Source: Dehalococcoidia bacterium
Lineage (GTDB): Bacteria; Chloroflexota; Dehalococcoidia; Bin125
NCBI GenBank assembly: GCA_965217625.1
Contig: OZ244557.1
Coordinates: 208,082 to 272,081 of the forward strand
Direction: 5' to 3'
Length of the DNA: 64,000 bases
Shown: one piece after another, positions 1 to 8,740 of the stretch
How positions within the stretch are numbered: the stretch's first letter is position 1
How the letters are laid out: every line of letters starts with the position of its first letter
Position numbers and translations under genes: made by a program
Notes under the pieces: model-generated
What the model was told of the DNA's origin: nothing
The model's input: the letters and a program-made list of their open reading frames with translations, nothing else
The model's database searches: none

Positions 1-522
1 CAGCTCGACGGCGCGATCCCGGCCGAGTTGGGCGCGCTGGGCGCCCTGGAGTCGCTGTCGCTGAGCGACAACCAACTCACGGGCCCGATCCCGGCGTCGC
101 TGGGCGAGTTGCGCGCGCTGACGCTCCTGGCGTTGAGCGACAACCAACTGAGCGGCGCGATCCCGGCGTCGCTGGGCGGGCTGGTCGAGCTGACGCTGCT
201 GTCGCTGCGGGACAACCAGCTGACCGGCGCCATCCCGGCGGCCTTGGGCGGGCTGCCCAACGTGATCGGCCTCTACCTGAACGGCAACGAGTTGACCGGC
301 CCCATCCCGCCGGCGCTCGGCGACATGGGCGGCCTGCAGTACCTCTCCCTCAACGACAACCAACTCAGCGGCCCCATCCCCGCCGAACTGGCGATGCTGG
401 CCGGGCTGCAGTCCCTGCGACTGAGCGGCAACCCCGGCCTCAGCGGCTGCGTCCCCGCGTCGCTCCGGGCCGTCGCGACGAACGACCTCGCCGAGATCCC
501 CCTACCCGACTGTTCGCCGTAG
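1..522 (+). CDS. C-terminal fragment of a leucine-rich-repeat protein, 5' end cut by the window edge. It has 24-residue plant-specific-type repeats (LxxLxLxxNxLTGxIPxxLGxLxx) and ends in a Cys-containing cap (SGNPGLSGCVPASLRAV..LPDCSP).
   Basis: The ORF-track translation shows perfect 24-aa periodicity (72-bp DNA periodicity). The C-terminal cap is shared with the two LRR genes at 5834-9835. The reading frame is open from base 1. Confidence 0.7.
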   Translation, partial: QLDGAIPAELGALGALESLSLSDNQLTGPIPASLGELRALTLLALSDNQLSGAIPASLGGLVELTLLSLRDNQLTGAIPAALGGLPNVIGLYLNGNELTGPIPPALGDMGGLQYLSLNDNQLSGPIPAELAMLAGLQSLRLSGNPGLSGCVPASLRAVATNDLAEIPLPDCSP

Positions 523-628
523 CCCGGGCAGCGGGACGTCCGGGATCGCCCGCGTGTAGGATGACCGCGACGGTGTGTGCTATTTTCGCACACACGGACT
601 TGAGGGGCTGGAACCCAAGGACACTGCC

Positions 629-1750
629 ATGACTCCCGGAACCCTTTCGGACTGGCCCGCCGTCGGCGCTCGTGTGACGCAAGCACGCCGCGCGCTGAGT
701 CTGACGCAGGAGCAGCTGGGGGCCACGGTCGGGCTGGGCCGCACCGTGATCGCCAAGATCGAAGGCGGGAATCGGACGTTGAGCGCGCTGGAACTCGCGC
801 AGTTGGCGCAGGCGACCGACCTCCCGATCGATTGGTTCGTGACCGAGTCCCCACCCGTCGTCGCCAGTCATCGCTCCGCCGACCCGTCGATGACGCACCT
901 GGTCGATCTGCGAGTCGAAGCGCTCACTCGCGAAGTCATGCAACTGCTTGAAGCGGACCTGTTGAAGCCGGCGGAGGGCGGGATCCGCCTCGCGCTGCCC
1001 CGGGACGTCGCGGAGGCGGAACGGGCGGCGATGGCGGTGCGGGAACATCTCGGCCTCGACGAGGAGGCCGTCATCGATCTCGGCGCCGCGGCCGAGAAGC
1101 TGAGTCTCTTCGCCTACTCGCTCGCGCTGCCCGGAAGTCAGGCCGACGGGGCCTACGTCGCCGCCGGCGAACGGGCCGGCGTGGCCCTGATCAACGGTGT
1201 GCATCCATCGGGACGGCGTCGCTTCACGCTGGCGCACGAGATCGGGCATCACGTCTTCCAGGACGAATACGCGATCGACCAGGACTTGGACACCGACACC
1301 GAGCGCCTGATCAACGCCTTCGCGATCCACCTGCTGCTGCCTCGGGCCGGGCTGCTGCGGCGGTGGGACGCGCTCAGCGGGCCGGACGACCACCGGCACG
1401 CGGCCATCGTCATCGCGGCGGAGAGTCGCGTGAGTTGGACCGCCCTGTGCGGGCACCTGGTCAATTTCGGCCTGCTGGGCCAACACGCGGGTGAGGTTCT
1501 GGGGGAGGCGCCGCCGAGCGCGCGGGAATACGCCGCGCTCGGCATCTCCATCGCCGAGGAGTTGGTCGCCCCCGCGATCCCTCAATCGATCCGGCGAGCC
1601 GTGTTTCGCGGCTACCGGCGGCATCGGCTCGGAACGGGCAGGGCACTGGAGCTTCTGCACGGCGCCGTGACGGAAGACGATCTGCCCGAACAAGACCAGA
1701 TCCCGCTTGAAGCCTTGGCGGGTGAGTTGCGGAGCCGGTCGCCAGCGTGA
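629..1750 (+). CDS. Fusion of an XRE-family HTH regulator with an ImmA/IrrE-type (M78, COG2856-like) zinc metallopeptidase
   Basis: The N-terminus has an HTH_XRE signature (LSLTQEQLGATVGLGRTVIAKIEGGNRTLSALELAQLAQATDLPIDWF). The centre has the HEXXH motif in RFTLAHEIGHHVFQDEY. The ATG at 629 is the first Met after upstream low-complexity sequence. Confidence 0.75.
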   Translation: MTPGTLSDWPAVGARVTQARRALSLTQEQLGATVGLGRTVIAKIEGGNRTLSALELAQLAQATDLPIDWFVTESPPVVASHRSADPSMTHLVDLRVEALTREVMQLLEADLLKPAEGGIRLALPRDVAEAERAAMAVREHLGLDEEAVIDLGAAAEKLSLFAYSLALPGSQADGAYVAAGERAGVALINGVHPSGRRRFTLAHEIGHHVFQDEYAIDQDLDTDTERLINAFAIHLLLPRAGLLRRWDALSGPDDHRHAAIVIAAESRVSWTALCGHLVNFGLLGQHAGEVLGEAPPSAREYAALGISIAEELVAPAIPQSIRRAVFRGYRRHRLGTGRALELLHGAVTEDDLPEQDQIPLEALAGELRSRSPA

Positions 1751-2292
1751 CGCCGGCCGCCGTCTTTGTCTTCGATGCGGGACCGCTGAGCTACTTCGCT
1801 CGCGCCGGCCGGATGGATGTGCTCCACGACGTCTGCGGCGATGCCCGCTGCGTCGTCACCGATGAGGTGGCCCGGGAGCTGGAACAGGGCGCCTCTGCCT
1901 ATCCGGCATTGCGCGCCGCTCTCGATGCAGAGTGGCTCAAGCGCGTCCGCCTCGCGAGCCTCGACGAACTCGGAGTCTTCGCGGAGTACGCCCGGGTTCT
2001 CGGTTCATCCAGGGAACGGGATCGCGGCGAAGCGGCGACGCTGGCGTGGGCCGAACTCCACGCAGCAACGGCCATCGTGGACGATCGGGCCGGCGTGAAC
2101 ACCGGGCGGGCCAGGGGAGTTCCGGTCCATGGGACGCTGTGGCTCGTGATCCAGGGGTTGCGGCGTGGACGGCTGACGGAGCCGGATGCAACGGCCCTCG
2201 TTGCAGCGTTCCTGGAAGCAGGCCAATGGCTCCCGTTCGAGGGTGCTGAGGAGTTCATACCCTGGGCACGCCGAGAGTTCCTGCTCGACTAG
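1747..2292 (+). CDS. PIN-like nucleic-acid-binding protein (DUF3368/COG2405-like). Its GTG start overlaps the stop of the ImmA-like gene.
   Basis: The N-terminus VFVFDAGPLSYFARAGRMDVLHDV...VVTDEVARELEQG resembles PIN-like DUF3368 proteins. There is a 4-nt GTGA start/stop overlap with the upstream gene, which suggests translational coupling. Confidence 0.5.
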   Translation: MTPAAVFVFDAGPLSYFARAGRMDVLHDVCGDARCVVTDEVARELEQGASAYPALRAALDAEWLKRVRLASLDELGVFAEYARVLGSSRERDRGEAATLAWAELHAATAIVDDRAGVNTGRARGVPVHGTLWLVIQGLRRGRLTEPDATALVAAFLEAGQWLPFEGAEEFIPWARREFLLD

Positions 2293-2327
2293 CGGAGGAG
2301 CCCAGTCGCGCCGCAAATCTCGCAGTC

Positions 2328-2540
2328 TTACGTGTGCGGCGCGGGGGAGAGGCGGATCACCGCGGGGCGAGGCATACCCTCGTCGAAGTAGCAATCGACG
2401 GCCTCGCGGACGTTGGCGCGCACCTCGTCGATGGTCTCGCCCTGGGTGTGGATGCCGTAGCCCAAGGCGCTGGCGGAGTAGCCGCCATCGACCTCGTCCT
2501 CGCTGACCTCGAAGATGATCTCGGTGATGGGGGATGTCAC
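2328..2540 (-). CDS. HicB-like/UPF0150-family antitoxin-fold small protein (no HicA partner seen)
   Basis: Core sequence ITEIIFEVSEDEVDGGYSASALGYGIHTQGETIDEVRANVREAVDCYF matches the HicB/UPF0150 fold family. The likely start is the GTG at 2540. The upstream part of the 101-aa ORF is Arg-rich low-complexity. Confidence 0.55.
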   Translation of the reverse strand: MTSPITEIIFEVSEDEVDGGYSASALGYGIHTQGETIDEVRANVREAVDCYFDEGMPRPAVIRLSPAPHT

Positions 2541-2636
2541 GGCGTCTCCTCTCGCAGGGGGGCGCGCGGCGCGTGCTCGCCGTTCGCCGCGCCCAGGGTA
2601 TCGCCCCGGGAGGGAGTGCGTCCGCGACGCCACCCA

Positions 2637-4433
<1,797 letters not shown>

Positions 4434-4600
4434 GCCCTCACCTCATCTATTGCTCGGCCGTGTGGCCGGCCGATTGGGCGTCGCGACTGACCCGCGACGC
4501 CGGCTCACTGTGCCACGGCGCCCGATCGCGATCAACGCGCGGCGCGGCGGACGCGAGCGCGGGCGGCGTCGCGGATACACTGGCGACCTACACTGGGCGT

Positions 4601-5827
4601 GTGAGCACCCGCATCGATCCGACGACCGCGTCCGCTGCGACCGCCCCGCCCGCGCCGGTCAGCGTGTACGTGCACGTGCCGTTCTGCACGGTCAAGTGCG
4701 CCTACTGCGACTTTAACTCGTACGCCGGCATGGAGGACGCGATCCCGGCCTGGGAGTCGGCGCTGCTGACGGAGCTGCGCGCCTGGGCGCCGGTCGTGGC
4801 GGGCCGGCCCGTGCCGACGGTGTTCATCGGCGGGGGCACGCCCAGTCTGCTGGAGGGCGCGTCGATCGCGCGCATCCTCGACGCCATCCGCGCGGGCTGC
4901 GCGCTCGACGACGGCGCCGAGATCACGCTGGAGGCGAACCCGGAGTCGGTGCAGCCGGAGCGGCTGGCGGCGTACCGGGCGGCGGGCGTGAACCGCCTGT
5001 CGATGGGGGTGCAATCGCTCGACCCGGGCGAACTGGCGTTCCTCGACCGCCTGCACGACGCCGAGCGCGCGCGCTGGGCCTTCGACACGGCGCGCGCGGC
5101 GGGCTTCGACAACATCAACTGCGACCTCATCTTCGGGCTGCCGGGGCAGTCGCCCGCGGCGTGGCGGCGCAGCCTCGACGGGGTCGTGTCGTGGGGCCCC
5201 GACCACCTGTCGTGCTACGGGCTGACGGTCGAGGACGGGACGCCGCTGGCGCAGCGCGTCGCGGAGGGGCGGGTGACCGAGGCGGACCCCGACGTGGTGG
5301 CGGAGATGTCGGAGTGGACCGAGGCGCGGCTGGCGACGCTGGGCTATCGCCAGTACGAGATCAGCAACTGGGCGCGGCCGGCGGCCGGCGGGGCGAGCCG
5401 GGCCTGCCGGCACAATCTCGTCTACTGGCGGCAGGGCGAGTACGTGGGTGTGGGGCCGGGCGCGCACGGCTTCGTCGACGGCGTGCGCTACGCCGTCGAG
5501 CGCAGCCCGGCGCGCTACGTCGCGGCGCTCACCGGGCCAGGCGGCGAGGACGCCCGCTGGGCGGCGGTCGTCTCGCAGGAGGCGGTCGACCCGGCCACGG
5601 CGGCCGTCGATGCGGCCGTGCTGGGCCTGCGCCTCAACGCCGGCATCGACGAGCCAGCCCTGCGCTCCCGTTACGGCGACGCCTGGACCGTCGTCGAGCC
5701 GGGCCTCCGCTGGGGCCTGGAGTCGGGCCTGCTGGAGCGGTCGGAGGGCTCGCTGCGTCTGACGCACCGCGGCCGTCGCCTGGCCAACGAGGTCTTCGTG
5801 CGCGTCGTCGCGCCGGAGGTCGTGTGA
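4601..5827 (+). CDS. hemW: Radical-SAM heme chaperone HemW (HemN-like, oxygen-independent coproporphyrinogen oxidase family)
   Basis: Radical-SAM CxxxCxxC motif (VPFCTVKCAYCDFNSY) and a HemN C-terminal domain. The GTG at 4601 gives about 408 aa. The longer 4460 start adds Arg-rich junk. Confidence 0.85.
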   Translation: MSTRIDPTTASAATAPPAPVSVYVHVPFCTVKCAYCDFNSYAGMEDAIPAWESALLTELRAWAPVVAGRPVPTVFIGGGTPSLLEGASIARILDAIRAGCALDDGAEITLEANPESVQPERLAAYRAAGVNRLSMGVQSLDPGELAFLDRLHDAERARWAFDTARAAGFDNINCDLIFGLPGQSPAAWRRSLDGVVSWGPDHLSCYGLTVEDGTPLAQRVAEGRVTEADPDVVAEMSEWTEARLATLGYRQYEISNWARPAAGGASRACRHNLVYWRQGEYVGVGPGAHGFVDGVRYAVERSPARYVAALTGPGGEDARWAAVVSQEAVDPATAAVDAAVLGLRLNAGIDEPALRSRYGDAWTVVEPGLRWGLESGLLERSEGSLRLTHRGRRLANEVFVRVVAPEVV

Positions 5828-5833
5828 GGGGGG

Positions 5834-8740
5834 TTAGGGGTCGCAGTCGGGGAGGGGGAGTTGGTCGAGGTCGTGGCTGTGGAGGTCGCGGAGGGCGGGG
5901 GGGATGCAGCCGGTCAGACCAGGGTTGCCGCTCAGATGGAGATGCAATAGGTCGTCCAACTCCGCGAACGCCAGGGGGATTGGTCCACTCAGTTGGTTGT
6001 TGTGGAGCAAGAGGGATTCCAGGTGGCGCAGCGACCCCAGTTCCGCCGGAATCGGGCCCGTCAGTTGATTGTCGTTCATAATCAGAATTCCCAACTCCGG
6101 CATTGAGCCCAGCGTCGCCGGGATCGGACCGCTGAGTTGGTTATCGGGCAGATCCAGCCGGTATAGACGCGGCAGGGATCCAAGCTGTGCGGGGATTGGT
6201 CCCGTGAGTTGGTTGCCGCCCAAGTTCAAGTACTCGAGATGCCGCAGCGCCGCTAGTTCGACGGGAATCGGCCCACTCAGTTGGTTGTGAGCAAGATCCA
6301 ACTGCCGCAAGTTGGGCAAGGATCCCAACTCCGAGGGGATCCCGCCCGTCAACTGGTTGCCGGCCAAACGCAGGGTCTTCAGGGTACCCAGGGAGCCGAG
6401 CGCCGCCGGGATCGCACCGCTGAGCAGGTTGTTCTGCAGACGCAGGAACTCCAGGGTGCCCAGGGATCCGAGCGCCGCCGGGATCGCGCCGCTGAGCAGG
6501 TTATCGTTGAGCGACAAGATCTGCAGCCTGGGTAGGGACGCGAGTTCGGCGGGGATCGCTCCGCTCAACTGGTTGTCGCTTAGGTCCAGAACCGAGAGTT
6601 TGGGCAGCGATCCGAGTTGGGCGGGAATCACCCCGGTCAGTCGATTGCGGCCTAGGTACAAGATTTCCAGTGAGTCAAGCGAACTCAACTCTGCCGGGAT
6701 CCCGCCCGTTAACTGGTTGCCGCTCAGGCTGAGGTGCGAAAGTTGGCTAAGGGATCCGAGCCATGCTGGGATCGCGCCGCTCAGCTGATTGCCGTTGAGC
6801 CCCAGGAGTCGCAGATCGCGCAGTGAGCGCAGCGCTGCCGGAATCGGGCCGCGCAGTTGGTTGTGGCTCAGACGCAGGTACTCCAACTCGTGCAGGGATC
6901 CCAGCGCTGCGGGGATCGGGCCAGTCAGCCGGTTGATCCCAAGCGACAGTGTCGTGAGATTGTGCAGGGTGCCCAGCGCCGCCGGGATGGGGCCGCCCAG
7001 TTGGTTGTCACTAAGGCCTAGGGAGGTGAGGTTGCGCAGAAATCCCAACTCCGCCGGGATTCCGCCTGTCAACCGGTTGTGCCCTAGGTACAGGGTCTCC
7101 AGGTCGCGCAGCGATGCCAGTTGCACGGGGATCGGCCCGGTCAGTTCGTTCGCGTCTAACTTCAGTGACCGCAGGGTTCTCATGGACCCCAGCCAGTCCG
7201 GGATCGGGCCCCTGAGATGGTTCCTGCGTAGGCTCAGATTCTCTAGCTTGCGCAGAGAGGCGAGTTCCGCCGGGATGGCGCCACTCAACTGGTTGAAGCC
7301 CAGCGACAGCTGGGTCAGATTGCGCAGAGCCCCCAGCGCCGCCGGGATCGGGCCGCTGAGGTCGTTGCTGTCCAGATCCAGATACCGCAGCTTGCGCAGA
7401 GAGGCGAGCTCCGCCGGAATGGTCCCACTCAACTGGTTGTAGTCCAGCGACAGTTCGGTCAGGTTGCGCAGCGCGCCAAGTGCTACGGGGATCGTCCCCG
7501 TCAGCTGGTTGCCGCGGAGCGACAGGGATTCGAGGTCGTGCAGCGCTCCGAGGTCCGGCGGGAGCAATCCCGTCAGTTCGTTGCGGCTGAGCCGCAAGAC
7601 CCTCAGGCCCGTCAGGCCAGCCAGTTGCGGTGGAATTCGGCCCGTGAGACCACGCAAGTGCAAGTCCAGTCCGGAGACGCGTAGCGGCGTGCCCCCGACG
7701 ATGAGCCCACCCCACTCCGCGATGGGAATGGCGGGATCCCAATTGAGGGGGGCGTCCCCTCGGAGCGTGTCCCGCGCGGCGAGCAGGGCGGCGCAATCCG
7801 AGACGAGGCCGGGGTTGTCGGCGGGGCTGGGCACGGCGACGCCGTTCTCGCAGGGCGGCGGGGGCGGCGGCGGCGGGCAGTCGGGCAGGGGCAGGTCGTC
7901 GAGGTCGTTGGAGGGGACGTCACGTAGCGCAAGCGGGACGCAGCCGCTAAGGCCGGGGTTGCGACTCAACTCCAGGTAGACCAAGTCTCCCAACTCCGCC
8001 AGCGCGGGCGGGATCGGACCGCTGAGGTCGTTGCTGCGCAGATAGAGCGTGGTCAGGAAGCGCAGGGATGCGAGTTCGGCCGGAATCGGGCCGCTGAGTT
8101 GGTTGTGGGACAGGGCCAGATTCCGGAGCGCGGACAGCGCCCCCAGTTCGGACGGGATCGAGCCGCTCAACTCGTTGCTCTGCAGCCACAGCGATTGCAG
8201 TTCCGGCAGGGAGCCCAGGGACGCGGGGATCGCGCCGCTGAGGCCGTTGTTGCTCAGCGCCAGGGACCGCAGCTTGCCCAGCGATCCCAGCGTCGCGGGG
8301 ATCGGACCGCCCAGTTGGTTGTGGTGCAGCCAGAGGTACCACAGGCCGCGCATGTCCCCCAGCGCCGCGGGGATCGGGCCCGACAGTTGGTTGAAGGACA
8401 GATCGAGGCGCCAGAGCGCGTCCAGGCCCGCCAGTCGGGCTGGGATCTGACCCGTGAGACCGTGGCGTGCCAGATCGAGCGTTCGCACGCGCGGCGGCTC
8501 GCCGGAGACGCCGACGCCGTCCCATTCGCGAATCGGCACGGACGCGTCCCAGTTGAGAACAGCGTCGCCGGCGAGGGCGTCCTTCGCGGCCAGCAGGATG
8601 TTGCAGTCGGCTACGAGAGCGGGGTTGAGGACGGCCGTACCGTCCTCGCAGGTGGGGGGCGCGGCCTGGGCCGGGCCGGACGCGAGGCCGGCCAGCAGCA
8701 GCGCGGCGAACAAGAAGAAGGAGAGGGCGCACTTCCGCAC
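5834..8740 (-). CDS. Secreted leucine-rich-repeat protein (968 aa) with two tandem modules. Each module has an N-terminal Cys-cap domain (PTCEDGTAV..DC..LLAAKDAL..LNW), many 24-aa plant-specific-type LRRs, and a C-terminal cap (SGNPGL[ST]GC[IV]P..LPDC). A poly-Pro linker joins the modules.
   Basis: Signal peptide MRKCALSFFLFAALLLAGLASGPAQA. Repeats LxxLxxLxLxxNxLSGxIPxxLGx are visible along the whole protein. The internal duplication is separated by PPPPPPPP. Confidence 0.8.
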   Translation of the reverse strand: MRKCALSFFLFAALLLAGLASGPAQAAPPTCEDGTAVLNPALVADCNILLAAKDALAGDAVLNWDASVPIREWDGVGVSGEPPRVRTLDLARHGLTGQIPARLAGLDALWRLDLSFNQLSGPIPAALGDMRGLWYLWLHHNQLGGPIPATLGSLGKLRSLALSNNGLSGAIPASLGSLPELQSLWLQSNELSGSIPSELGALSALRNLALSHNQLSGPIPAELASLRFLTTLYLRSNDLSGPIPPALAELGDLVYLELSRNPGLSGCVPLALRDVPSNDLDDLPLPDCPPPPPPPPCENGVAVPSPADNPGLVSDCAALLAARDTLRGDAPLNWDPAIPIAEWGGLIVGGTPLRVSGLDLHLRGLTGRIPPQLAGLTGLRVLRLSRNELTGLLPPDLGALHDLESLSLRGNQLTGTIPVALGALRNLTELSLDYNQLSGTIPAELASLRKLRYLDLDSNDLSGPIPAALGALRNLTQLSLGFNQLSGAIPAELASLRKLENLSLRRNHLRGPIPDWLGSMRTLRSLKLDANELTGPIPVQLASLRDLETLYLGHNRLTGGIPAELGFLRNLTSLGLSDNQLGGPIPAALGTLHNLTTLSLGINRLTGPIPAALGSLHELEYLRLSHNQLRGPIPAALRSLRDLRLLGLNGNQLSGAIPAWLGSLSQLSHLSLSGNQLTGGIPAELSSLDSLEILYLGRNRLTGVIPAQLGSLPKLSVLDLSDNQLSGAIPAELASLPRLQILSLNDNLLSGAIPAALGSLGTLEFLRLQNNLLSGAIPAALGSLGTLKTLRLAGNQLTGGIPSELGSLPNLRQLDLAHNQLSGPIPVELAALRHLEYLNLGGNQLTGPIPAQLGSLPRLYRLDLPDNQLSGPIPATLGSMPELGILIMNDNQLTGPIPAELGSLRHLESLLLHNNQLSGPIPLAFAELDDLLHLHLSGNPGLTGCIPPALRDLHSHDLDQLPLPDCDP

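What the first reader, a model, noticed from the sequence alone, without database searches (positions are those of the whole stretch)
575..2633. XRE-HTH::ImmA/IrrE metallopeptidase fusion translationally coupled to a PIN-like gene, with a convergent orphan HicB-like gene
ImmA/IrrE (COG2856) peptidases normally cleave a separate XRE repressor. Here the HTH and HEIGHH protease are one polypeptide. Its stop overlaps the GTG start of a DUF3368/PIN-like protein (GTGA), which is the organisation of a toxin-antitoxin or abortive-infection pair. That PIN family usually pairs with UPF0175 antitoxins, not ImmA. A HicB-fold gene with no HicA sits convergently 36 bp away. This is a possible three-component defence or addiction module wedged between the LRR genes and aspS.
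Basis: partly seen in the sequence, partly recalled or inferred. Interest (0 to 1): 0.55.

Follow-up and report, generated by a model that had tools for sequence, protein, structure and literature searches.

The report
HTH-protease antitoxin with PIN toxin
This is a two-gene toxin-antitoxin-type module of an already catalogued kind (a DNA-binding zinc-protease regulator followed by a PIN-fold nuclease), and the neighbouring HicB-like gene is the leftover antitoxin of a separate hicBA pair that lost its toxin, not a third component.

Summary
The sequence features are real. ORF1 (ATG 629-1750, not GTG 575) is an XRE-HTH plus M78/ImmA-IrrE zinc peptidase with an intact HEIGHH motif. Its TGA stop overlaps the GTG start of ORF2 (1747-2292). 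ORF2 has a confidently modelled PIN fold and conserved D10/E44/E95/D112. The pair recurs, adjacent and in the same order, in every other locus that carries an ORF2 homologue (18, 16 distinct) from at least four phyla and one plasmid. A conserved palindrome, GTGC-N7-GCAC, lies upstream and encloses an extended -10 box. This looks like the autorepression site.

HTH-COG2856 fusions and their pairing with COG2405/DUF3368 PIN genes are already described (Makarova 2009; Matelska 2017; Ernits 2023). PADLOC models call ORF1 RmrA (the Rosmer antitoxin) and ORF2 PDC-S70.

The HicB-like gene (2328-2540) is not part of the module. Its family has HicA directly downstream in 73 of 80 loci. Four sister contigs of this same locus carry hicB-hicA and no PIN gene, and there the ORF1 orthologue carries independent frameshifts. 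The window's hicB lost hicA and its conserved C-terminal tail.

Verdict: a new member of a known kind. Toxicity, neutralisation and the protease's role remain untested.

The parts
573..595 (+). Putative operator and promoter. It is a perfect palindrome, GTGTGTGC-TATTTTC-GCACACAC, whose left arm and spacer read TGcTATTTT, an extended -10 box. The likely binding partner is the ORF1 HTH dimer, giving autorepression.
   Evidence: The inverted repeat has 8-nt arms that are 100% complementary. The core GTGCTNNNNTCGCAC occurs exactly once, on the + strand just upstream of the ORF1 homologue, in 11 of the first 16 loci fetched. L012 carries a still-palindromic variant, GTTC..GAAC. The Tsukamurella plasmid has CATGTGTG-N7-CACACATG. 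DNA binding itself is inferred.
629..1750 (+). ORF1, 373 aa: XRE HTH (residues 13-72), a helical linker, an M78/ImmA-IrrE zinc peptidase (residues about 130-271, HEIGHH at nt 1235-1252) and a family-specific all-helical C-terminal region (residues about 250-373). Predicted to be the autorepressor and antitoxin.
1747..2292 (+). ORF2, 181 aa: a PIN-fold protein of the COG2405/DUF3368 group (PADLOC PDC-S70). Predicted to be the nuclease toxin. Its GTG start overlaps the ORF1 stop (GTGA).
1744..2349 (.). Lineage-specific 606-bp segment: the last ORF1 codons, ORF2, the spacer and the altered 3' end of hicB. In four sister contigs, 307 bp carrying hicA and the native hicB tail lie in its place.
   Evidence: blastn: window 1-1743 and 2350-5870 align at 91-95% identity to L019-L022, and the segment between does not. 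Junction sequences were read directly.
2328..2540 (-). ORF3, 70 aa: a short HicB-family antitoxin gene that has lost its cognate hicA and its conserved C-terminal tail (family ...IRLHFVRDEVLAL, here ...IRLSPAPHT). It lies downstream of aspS on the same strand and is not part of the ORF1-ORF2 module.
   Evidence: Homologues form more than 1500 clusters, some named HicB family antitoxin by NCBI. The tail comparison comes from alignment A3. HicA lies directly downstream in 73 of 80 loci. Sister contigs have hicB (74 aa) plus hicA (80 aa, Pfam HicA_toxin 1.6e-10). Direct Pfam and PDB hits are weak: HicB_lk_antitox E=0.049 and 6g1c E=0.25.

Best explanation
ORF1 and ORF2 form a bicistronic, mobile toxin-antitoxin or abortive-infection type module of the Xre-COG2856 (RosmerTA-like) class with a PIN effector.

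Shown here: the two genes are always adjacent and translationally coupled. ORF2 has a PIN fold with a conserved acidic site. ORF1 has an HTH and an M78 peptidase with conserved zinc-site residues. A conserved palindrome overlaps an extended -10 element upstream. ORF1 decays where ORF2 is absent.

Inferred mechanism: a dimer of ORF1 binds the GTGC-N7-GCAC operator through its HTH and represses the operon. ORF1 also holds the PIN nuclease inactive, most likely through its family-specific helical C-terminal region. A trigger such as phage infection or DNA damage, by analogy with ImmA, IrrE and CapP, activates the peptidase or destabilises ORF1. That derepresses the operon and frees the PIN RNase, which arrests growth by cutting RNA.

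ORF3 is a separate matter. It is the surviving antitoxin of an independent hicBA pair that sat convergent to this module, and its toxin was deleted in this lineage.
For: Domains and folds.

Conserved residues: D10, E44, E95 and D112 in ORF2, and HExxH plus E225 in ORF1.

Synteny: the ORF1 homologue lies directly upstream of the ORF2 homologue in L001-L016, L023 and L104. These come from Chloroflexota, Acidobacteriota, Myxococcota and Actinomycetota MAGs and an Actinomycetota plasmid, in unrelated neighbourhoods that often hold defence or mobile genes such as AbiEii, Type ISP RM, GmrSD, transposases and a recombinase next to smpB. Identities of the two proteins fall in step, from 69/68% down to 36/38%.

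Operator.

Natural knockout: four sister contigs that lack ORF2 carry different 1-nt frameshifts in ORF1 (7 in total), while the adjacent 1.8-kb aspS has no indel in any of them.

Literature: COG2856-Xre fusions linked to PIN and RelE (PMC2701414); COG2405 PIN with HTH and DUF955 (PMC5499597); ImmA-domain RmrA confirmed as an antitoxin and linked to PIN-like domains (PMC10440598); ΔrmrA could not be transformed; the same HTH-ImmA architecture acts as an antitoxin in pneumococcal RipAB.
Against: There is no experimental evidence for this subfamily. Toxicity of ORF2, neutralisation by ORF1, DNA binding and proteolysis are all inferred.

ORF2 matches no RmrT model, only PDC-S70, which is an unvalidated defence candidate.

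The fourth canonical PIN acidic position could not be mapped. The family instead has an invariant H128-G129 followed by T or S, so catalytic competence is likely but not proven.

The window's neighbours (LRR genes, aspS, a HemN-like gene) are not a defence island.

The frameshifts in the sister contigs come from low-coverage (6-22x) metagenome assemblies and could partly be assembly errors, although aspS is clean in the same contigs.
Confidence: 0.75

Rival explanations
1. Three-component module: HicB acts together with the HTH-M78 protein and the PIN protein, for example as a second antitoxin or regulator.
For: The gene lies 35 nt from ORF2 and is convergent with it. The same trio is also seen in L023.
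Against: No HicB homologue accompanies the pair in the 12 loci searched for one, and none is called or annotated beside it in the other unrelated contexts. It recurs only at this same aspS locus. The HicB family pairs with HicA in 73 of 80 loci. Sister contigs keep hicB-hicA at this locus without PIN. The window's hicB has lost its conserved tail. It lies on the aspS strand.
Confidence: 0.03
2. ORF1 is an ImmR/ImmA-like or IrrE/DdrO-like stress or mobile-element regulator that controls other genes. ORF2 is then an accessory RNA-processing enzyme, not a toxin.
For: The protease part resembles IrrE/PprI and CapP. Makarova 2009 raised generic regulator roles for Xre-COG2856.
Against: ORF1 is strictly linked to ORF2 across phyla in unrelated contexts. 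The operator core matches exactly at only one other site in the 64-kb window, on the opposite strand and far from the operon. ORF1 accumulates frameshifts once ORF2 is gone, which argues against an independent regulon. No integrase or ICE genes flank it in the window.
Confidence: 0.1
3. Reversed roles: the zinc peptidase is the toxic or effector activity (Makarova's original 'T - predicted Zn-dependent protease'), and the PIN-fold protein is a non-catalytic partner or antitoxin.
For: Some literature treats COG2856 proteins as toxins (PMC10538038). The fourth canonical PIN acidic residue could not be confirmed.
Against: ImmA-domain proteins were confirmed as antitoxins in Rosmer systems and in RipAB. 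Three canonical acidic positions plus E95 in ORF2 are under strong conservation. In the sister contigs it is ORF1 that decays after loss of ORF2, the pattern expected of an orphan antitoxin.
Confidence: 0.07
4. The locus is a decaying remnant with no current function in this genome.
For: The adjacent hicBA is already broken. Sister strains have lost PIN and are losing ORF1.
Against: In the window and in L023 both ORFs are full length. All conserved catalytic residues, the coupling overlap and the operator are intact. ORF1 is 94% and ORF2 87% identical in nucleotides with no indels between the two.
Confidence: 0.05

Closest known systems
Xre-COG2856 (HTH-ImmA/IrrE fusion) with a PIN toxin, as predicted by Makarova et al. 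2009 and, for COG2405/DUF3368 specifically, by Matelska et al. 2017
   Same: The domain architecture, gene order and coupling are identical: a fused HTH plus DUF955/M78 protein upstream of a COG2405-type PIN gene.
   Different: Those reports are computational catalogues. The ORF2 clade here is a divergent edge of DUF3368 (below the Pfam cut-off). The conserved operator and the natural PIN-loss and ORF1-decay series are reported here, not there.
RosmerTA (RmrT/RmrA) anti-phage toxin-antitoxin systems (Millman 2022; Ernits 2023)
   Same: ORF1 matches 14 PADLOC RmrA models (best 5.5e-20) over the HTH and peptidase. It is a two-gene operon with an HTH-Zn-peptidase antitoxin.
   Different: ORF2 matches no RmrT model. 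Characterised RmrT toxins are of unknown fold or depolarise membranes, whereas this effector is a PIN nuclease. The last third of ORF1 is not covered by the RmrA models. The gene order is antitoxin first.
VapBC (PIN toxin with a small DNA-binding antitoxin)
   Different: The antitoxin is 373 aa with an embedded, apparently active metallopeptidase, instead of a roughly 80-aa RHH, AbrB or Phd protein. ORF2 has an extra C-terminal helical extension (181 aa against about 130) and no sequence-level similarity to VapC.
CapH/CapP and ImmR/ImmA, IrrE/DdrO (an M78 protease cleaving a separate XRE repressor)
   Different: Here the two domains are in one polypeptide, and the controlled gene is a single adjacent PIN toxin, not CBASS, an ICE or a DNA-repair regulon. 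The cleavage substrate is unknown.
HicBA (for ORF3)
   Same: The ORF3 family is followed by a HicA_toxin gene with a 4-nt overlap in 73 of 80 loci, and in sister contigs of this locus.
   Different: The window copy lacks hicA and the conserved C-terminal 10 residues. This short (about 73 aa) HicB lacks the DNA-binding domain of the classical HicB. Pfam and PDB similarity is only marginal.

Membership tests
Xre-COG2856 fused antitoxin/regulator (RmrA-like) | N-terminal XRE-type HTH domain | tested here: met
Xre-COG2856 fused antitoxin/regulator (RmrA-like) | M78/COG2856 zinc peptidase domain with HExxH and a downstream Glu ligand | tested here: met
   Peptidase_M78 3e-11, above the cut-off. HEIGHH is present. 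H203, E204, H207, H208 and E225 are conserved in 56 homologues. CapP and PprI fold matches.
Xre-COG2856 fused antitoxin/regulator (RmrA-like) | Match to curated RmrA profiles | tested here: met
   14 PADLOC RmrA models match, best 5.5e-20, covering residues 12-245. The NCBIfam spr1629 repressor/antitoxin equivalog scores only 28.8 bits against a 335-bit cut-off, so ORF1 is not that equivalog.
RosmerTA system | Adjacent RmrT toxin recognised by RmrT models | tested here: not met
   ORF2 hits only PDC-S70 models in PADLOC, and no RmrT. RmrT is heterogeneous, so this lowers the claim 'is a Rosmer system' but not the claim 'works like one'.
RosmerTA system | Toxicity neutralised by RmrA; anti-phage protection | not testable with these tools
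   Requires expression and phage assays.
PIN domain nuclease (VapC-like superfamily) | PIN alpha/beta/alpha fold | tested here: met
PIN domain nuclease (VapC-like superfamily) | Conserved acidic active-site residues (three strictly conserved, a fourth less so) | tested here: inconclusive
   D10 (end of beta1), E44 (helix) and D112 (after beta3) sit where the canonical residues are expected and are 90-100% conserved, as is E95. The fourth canonical position could not be mapped, and no residue-level structural alignment was available.
COG2405 / Pfam DUF3368 (PADLOC PDC-S70) | Match to the family profile at the curated threshold | tested here: inconclusive
COG2405 / Pfam DUF3368 (PADLOC PDC-S70) | Usual partner is a UPF0175 antitoxin | tested here: not met
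   The partner is HTH-M78 in every locus examined. This alternative partner is itself documented.
Type II toxin-antitoxin module (generic) | Conserved adjacent gene pair, overlapping ORFs, patchy distribution in varied or mobile contexts | tested here: met
   GTGA overlap. 16 distinct other loci from at least four phyla and one plasmid, in neighbourhoods with transposases, recombinases and defence genes.
Type II toxin-antitoxin module (generic) | Autoregulation through an operator at the promoter | tested here: inconclusive
   A conserved palindrome overlaps an extended -10-like TGnTAnnnT. Binding was not tested.
HicBA (ORF3) | HicB-fold antitoxin recognised by profile | tested here: inconclusive
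   HicB_lk_antitox E=0.049, 14.2 bits, below the cut-off. PDB HicB E=0.25. NCBI names some homologues HicB family antitoxin.
HicBA (ORF3) | Adjacent HicA toxin gene | tested here: not met
   Absent in the window and L023. Present in 73 of 80 family loci and in sister contigs L019-L022. ORF3 is therefore an orphan remnant of a hicBA pair.

The most novel reading that the evidence does not exclude
The fused HTH-M78 protein could be a single-polypeptide sensor, repressor and antitoxin. On a phage or damage cue it would cleave itself, or its dimer partner, in the manner of LexA. That would both derepress the operon and release a PIN RNase. This would be the first mechanistic account of how COG2856-fused antitoxins control nuclease toxins, and it would validate PDC-S70 as one half of a two-gene defence system, not a single-gene one.
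Probability: 0.3. Interest if true: 0.6.

Novelty: new member of a known kind. Interest (0 to 1): 0.3.

Why it matters
The class, an HTH-COG2856 fusion with a PIN toxin, has been predicted since 2009, is now placed near RosmerTA defence systems, and has no experimentally characterised PIN-bearing member in the literature searched here.

This locus offers three things for such work:
- A clean, compact example with an identifiable operator.
- Evidence that PADLOC's 'single-gene' candidate PDC-S70 is, at least in this clade, the effector of a two-gene module.
- A natural comparison in which loss of the PIN gene is followed by decay of the HTH-protease gene. That is the genetic signature expected if ORF1 exists only to control ORF2.

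It does not change any established view.

Tried and rejected
- Sequence searches of ORF2 against PDB chains, as a single sequence and as a 67-sequence profile, gave nothing significant. Only fold comparison showed the PIN relationship.
The fourth active-site position therefore stays unmapped.
- The search for related loci with the diverse alignment A2 failed for lack of a conserved stretch. A1 returned only 8 genome loci.
- The exact-sequence look-up of P0001 found no contig, so the source genome was not retrieved. Relatives are Chloroflexota MAGs (Tepidiformaceae, Dehalococcoidia), some with isolate names suggesting sponge metagenomes.
- The sigma-70 and terminator scan found nothing in 480-2700. 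It requires a -35 hexamer, whereas the conserved element looks like an extended -10.
- No phage record encodes an ORF2 relative. One plasmid does.
- I considered that the frameshifts in the sister contigs are assembly errors. This cannot be excluded without reads, but aspS (1.8 kb in each of 4 contigs) has none, against 7 in ORF1 (1.1 kb in each of 4).
- I considered whether PIN and hicA were swapped as a cassette or lost by two independent deletions. Family consensus favours an ancestor with both pairs complete, but aspS and ORF1 identities give conflicting groupings, so the direction is unresolved.
- A second near-match to the operator lies inside ORF1 (672-686, one mismatch). I judged it a likely by-product of the coding sequence.
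Full report
**Anatomy**

The region lies between an LRR-repeat gene (28-522, +) and aspS (2637-4433, -) in DNA of about 70% G+C.

ORF1 is open from GTG 575. That codon lies inside a perfect palindrome, GTGTGTGC-TATTTTC-GCACACAC (573-595). ATG 629, preceded by AAGGA, gives a 373-aa product that matches the 364-395 aa of its homologues.

ORF1 carries three recognisable parts:
- An XRE HTH at residues 13-72.
- Peptidase_M78 at residues 172-271, with HEIGHH at nt 1235-1252.
- An all-helical C-terminal region.

Its TGA stop (1748-1750) overlaps the GTG start (1747) of ORF2 (181 aa, ending at 2292).

ORF3 lies on the minus strand, 35 nt beyond ORF2. GTG 2540, preceded by AGGAGA, gives a 70-aa protein, which is the length of its homologues.

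**What the proteins are**

H203, E204, H207, H208 and E225 are invariant or nearly so. The peptidase site is therefore under selection.

**The pair is a conserved unit**

Beyond the window, every locus that carries an ORF2 homologue has the HTH-M78 gene directly upstream on the same strand. These loci were reached in three ways:
- From ORF2 relatives (L001-L012, L023).
- From ORF1 relatives only 42-45% identical (L013-L016).
- From a Tsukamurella plasmid at 27% identity (L104).

Hosts include Chloroflexota, Acidobacteriota, Myxococcota and Actinomycetota. The neighbourhoods are unrelated and often hold mobile or defence genes, such as a recombinase beside smpB, transposases, AbiEii, Type ISP restriction, GmrSD and ParE-like genes. 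Identities of the two proteins fall together, from 69/68% to 36/38%.

**A conserved operator**

The core GTGCTNNNNTCGCAC occurs exactly once, on the + strand and 5-50 nt before the start codon, in 11 of the first 16 loci fetched. The spacer reads TAnnnT (TATTTT, TAATAT, TAAAAT, TATAAT and similar). With the TG of the left arm this gives TGnTAnnnT, an extended -10 element.

L012 has GTTC-N7-GAAC, in which both arms have changed and the sequence stays palindromic. The plasmid locus has CATGTGTG-N7-CACACATG. In several loci the start codon follows at once, which suggests leaderless transcripts.

I infer that an ORF1 dimer binds here and represses its own promoter. Binding was not tested.

**The HicB-like gene is a separate, broken module**

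ORF3 belongs to a very conserved family of about 73 aa, with more than 1500 clusters at 70-96% identity. NCBI names some members 'HicB family antitoxin'. Direct profile evidence is marginal.

Context settles the question. In 80 metagenome loci with room downstream, 73 have a HicA homologue starting at the hicB stop.

Four sister contigs of this same locus (L019-L022) have HemN-like, aspS, hicB (74 aa), hicA (80 aa; Pfam HicA_toxin 1.6e-10) and then the convergent HTH-M78 gene, with no PIN gene. Window 1-1743 and 2350-5870 align to them at 91-95% identity. In place of the 606 bp between (ORF2, the spacer and the hicB 3' end), they have 307 bp holding hicA and the native hicB tail.

The family consensus tail is ...IRLHFVRDEVLAL. 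The window has ...IRLSPAPHT, a tail shared only with three close relatives, one of which lies on contig L023. L023 has the window's arrangement at 87-94% nucleotide identity.

The simplest history is an ancestor with both pairs complete and convergent, followed by loss of hicA in one lineage and of the PIN gene in the other. A cassette swap by recombination is not excluded, because aspS and ORF1 identities group the contigs differently.

**A natural test of dependency**

In the four contigs without the PIN gene, the ORF1 orthologue carries 1-nt indels at different places:
- L019 at window position 1195.
- L020 at 761.
- L021 at 1458.
- L022 at 1162, 1209 and 1635.

Each breaks the frame. In the same contigs aspS (1.8 kb) has no indel, and all but one of the indels inside the HemN-like coding region are in frame, the exception being a 1-nt insertion in L022. 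ORF1 is also more diverged there (88.6-93.4% identity, against 95% for aspS).

Unless these are assembly errors confined to one gene, ORF1 is dispensable once ORF2 is gone. That fits an antitoxin or dedicated regulator and argues against an independent regulon.

**Comparison with what is known**

Makarova et al. 2009 (PMC2701414) reported that COG2856 and Xre are fused in more than half of cases, and that many fusions sit in operons with PIN or RelE toxins. They proposed a protease-controlled TA circuit.

Matelska et al. 2017 (PMC5499597) list COG2405 (DUF3368) among PIN-like families co-transcribed with HTH and DUF955. They cite a Geobacillus HTH-DUF955 fusion upstream of a COG2405 gene.

Millman et al. 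2022 defined RosmerTA as an antitoxin with a Zn-peptidase plus a toxin of unknown function, and could not delete rmrA.

Ernits et al. 2023 (PMC10440598) state that the ImmA domain is confirmed as an antitoxin in Rosmer systems, often has an N-terminal HTH, and is associated with PIN-like domains.

A 2025 preprint shows that the same HTH-ImmA architecture neutralises a toxin in pneumococcal RipAB.

PDC-S70 is described as an unvalidated PIN-nuclease defence candidate.

I found no experimental study of an HTH-M78 with DUF3368-PIN pair.

**Verdict**

The mechanism is autorepression at the palindrome, neutralisation of a PIN RNase by ORF1, and release on a trigger that acts through the peptidase. 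It rests on homology, synteny and the decay pattern, and it remains to be tested.

Novelty: a new member of a known kind. Interest: 0.3.

Noticed in passing
window 28-522 (+) and 5834-8740 (-): These are large leucine-rich-repeat proteins. The 968-aa one has a signal-peptide-like N-terminus and dozens of 'NxLxGxIPxxLGxL' repeats of the plant-type LRR pattern. The repeats cross-hit each other in blastn. Relatives of the locus are Chloroflexota MAGs, some with isolate names that suggest sponge metagenomes, so these may be 'eukaryote-like' symbiont proteins.
   Followed up: no
L019-L022 compared with window 1744-2349: The locus has two alternative forms in closely related strains. One has the PIN gene and an orphan hicB. 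The other has hicA and a frameshifted HTH-M78 gene. Each form keeps only one of the two convergent toxins.
   Followed up: yes
L018 4219-4457; L057, L059, L065, L073, L086; L029, L064, L070, L091: In about 10 of 80 loci of this short hicB family, the downstream hicA is split over two or three frames or truncated in tblastn, and 6 further loci have no hicA hit. Toxin decay next to a highly conserved (70-96% identity) hicB seems frequent, which raises the question of what keeps the orphan antitoxin conserved.
   Followed up: partly
L010, L013, L016, L104 (upstream of the ORF1 homologue): In these loci the start codon follows the operator/-10 palindrome within 1-6 nt, or overlaps its right arm in L104. 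This suggests leaderless mRNAs for the HTH-M78 gene in some lineages. The window has a 37-nt leader with an AAGGA ribosome-binding site.
   Followed up: no
window 672-686 (-): A one-mismatch copy of the operator core (GTGCTTGCGTCACAC) lies 44 nt inside ORF1. Across the whole window there are 7 matches at up to 1 mismatch, against 2.3 expected. It may be a coding by-product or a second weak site.
   Followed up: no
window 4434-4603, between aspS and the HemN-like gene: The sister contigs carry a 22-nt insertion at window position 4451, in the divergent intergenic region between aspS and the radical-SAM HemN-like gene.
   Followed up: no
L104 3558-3746 (Tsukamurella plasmid NZ_LR134447): On this plasmid the HTH-protease and PIN pair is followed, with a 4-nt overlap, by a gene annotated 'antitoxin VbhA family protein'. 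This may be a further stacked module.
   Followed up: no
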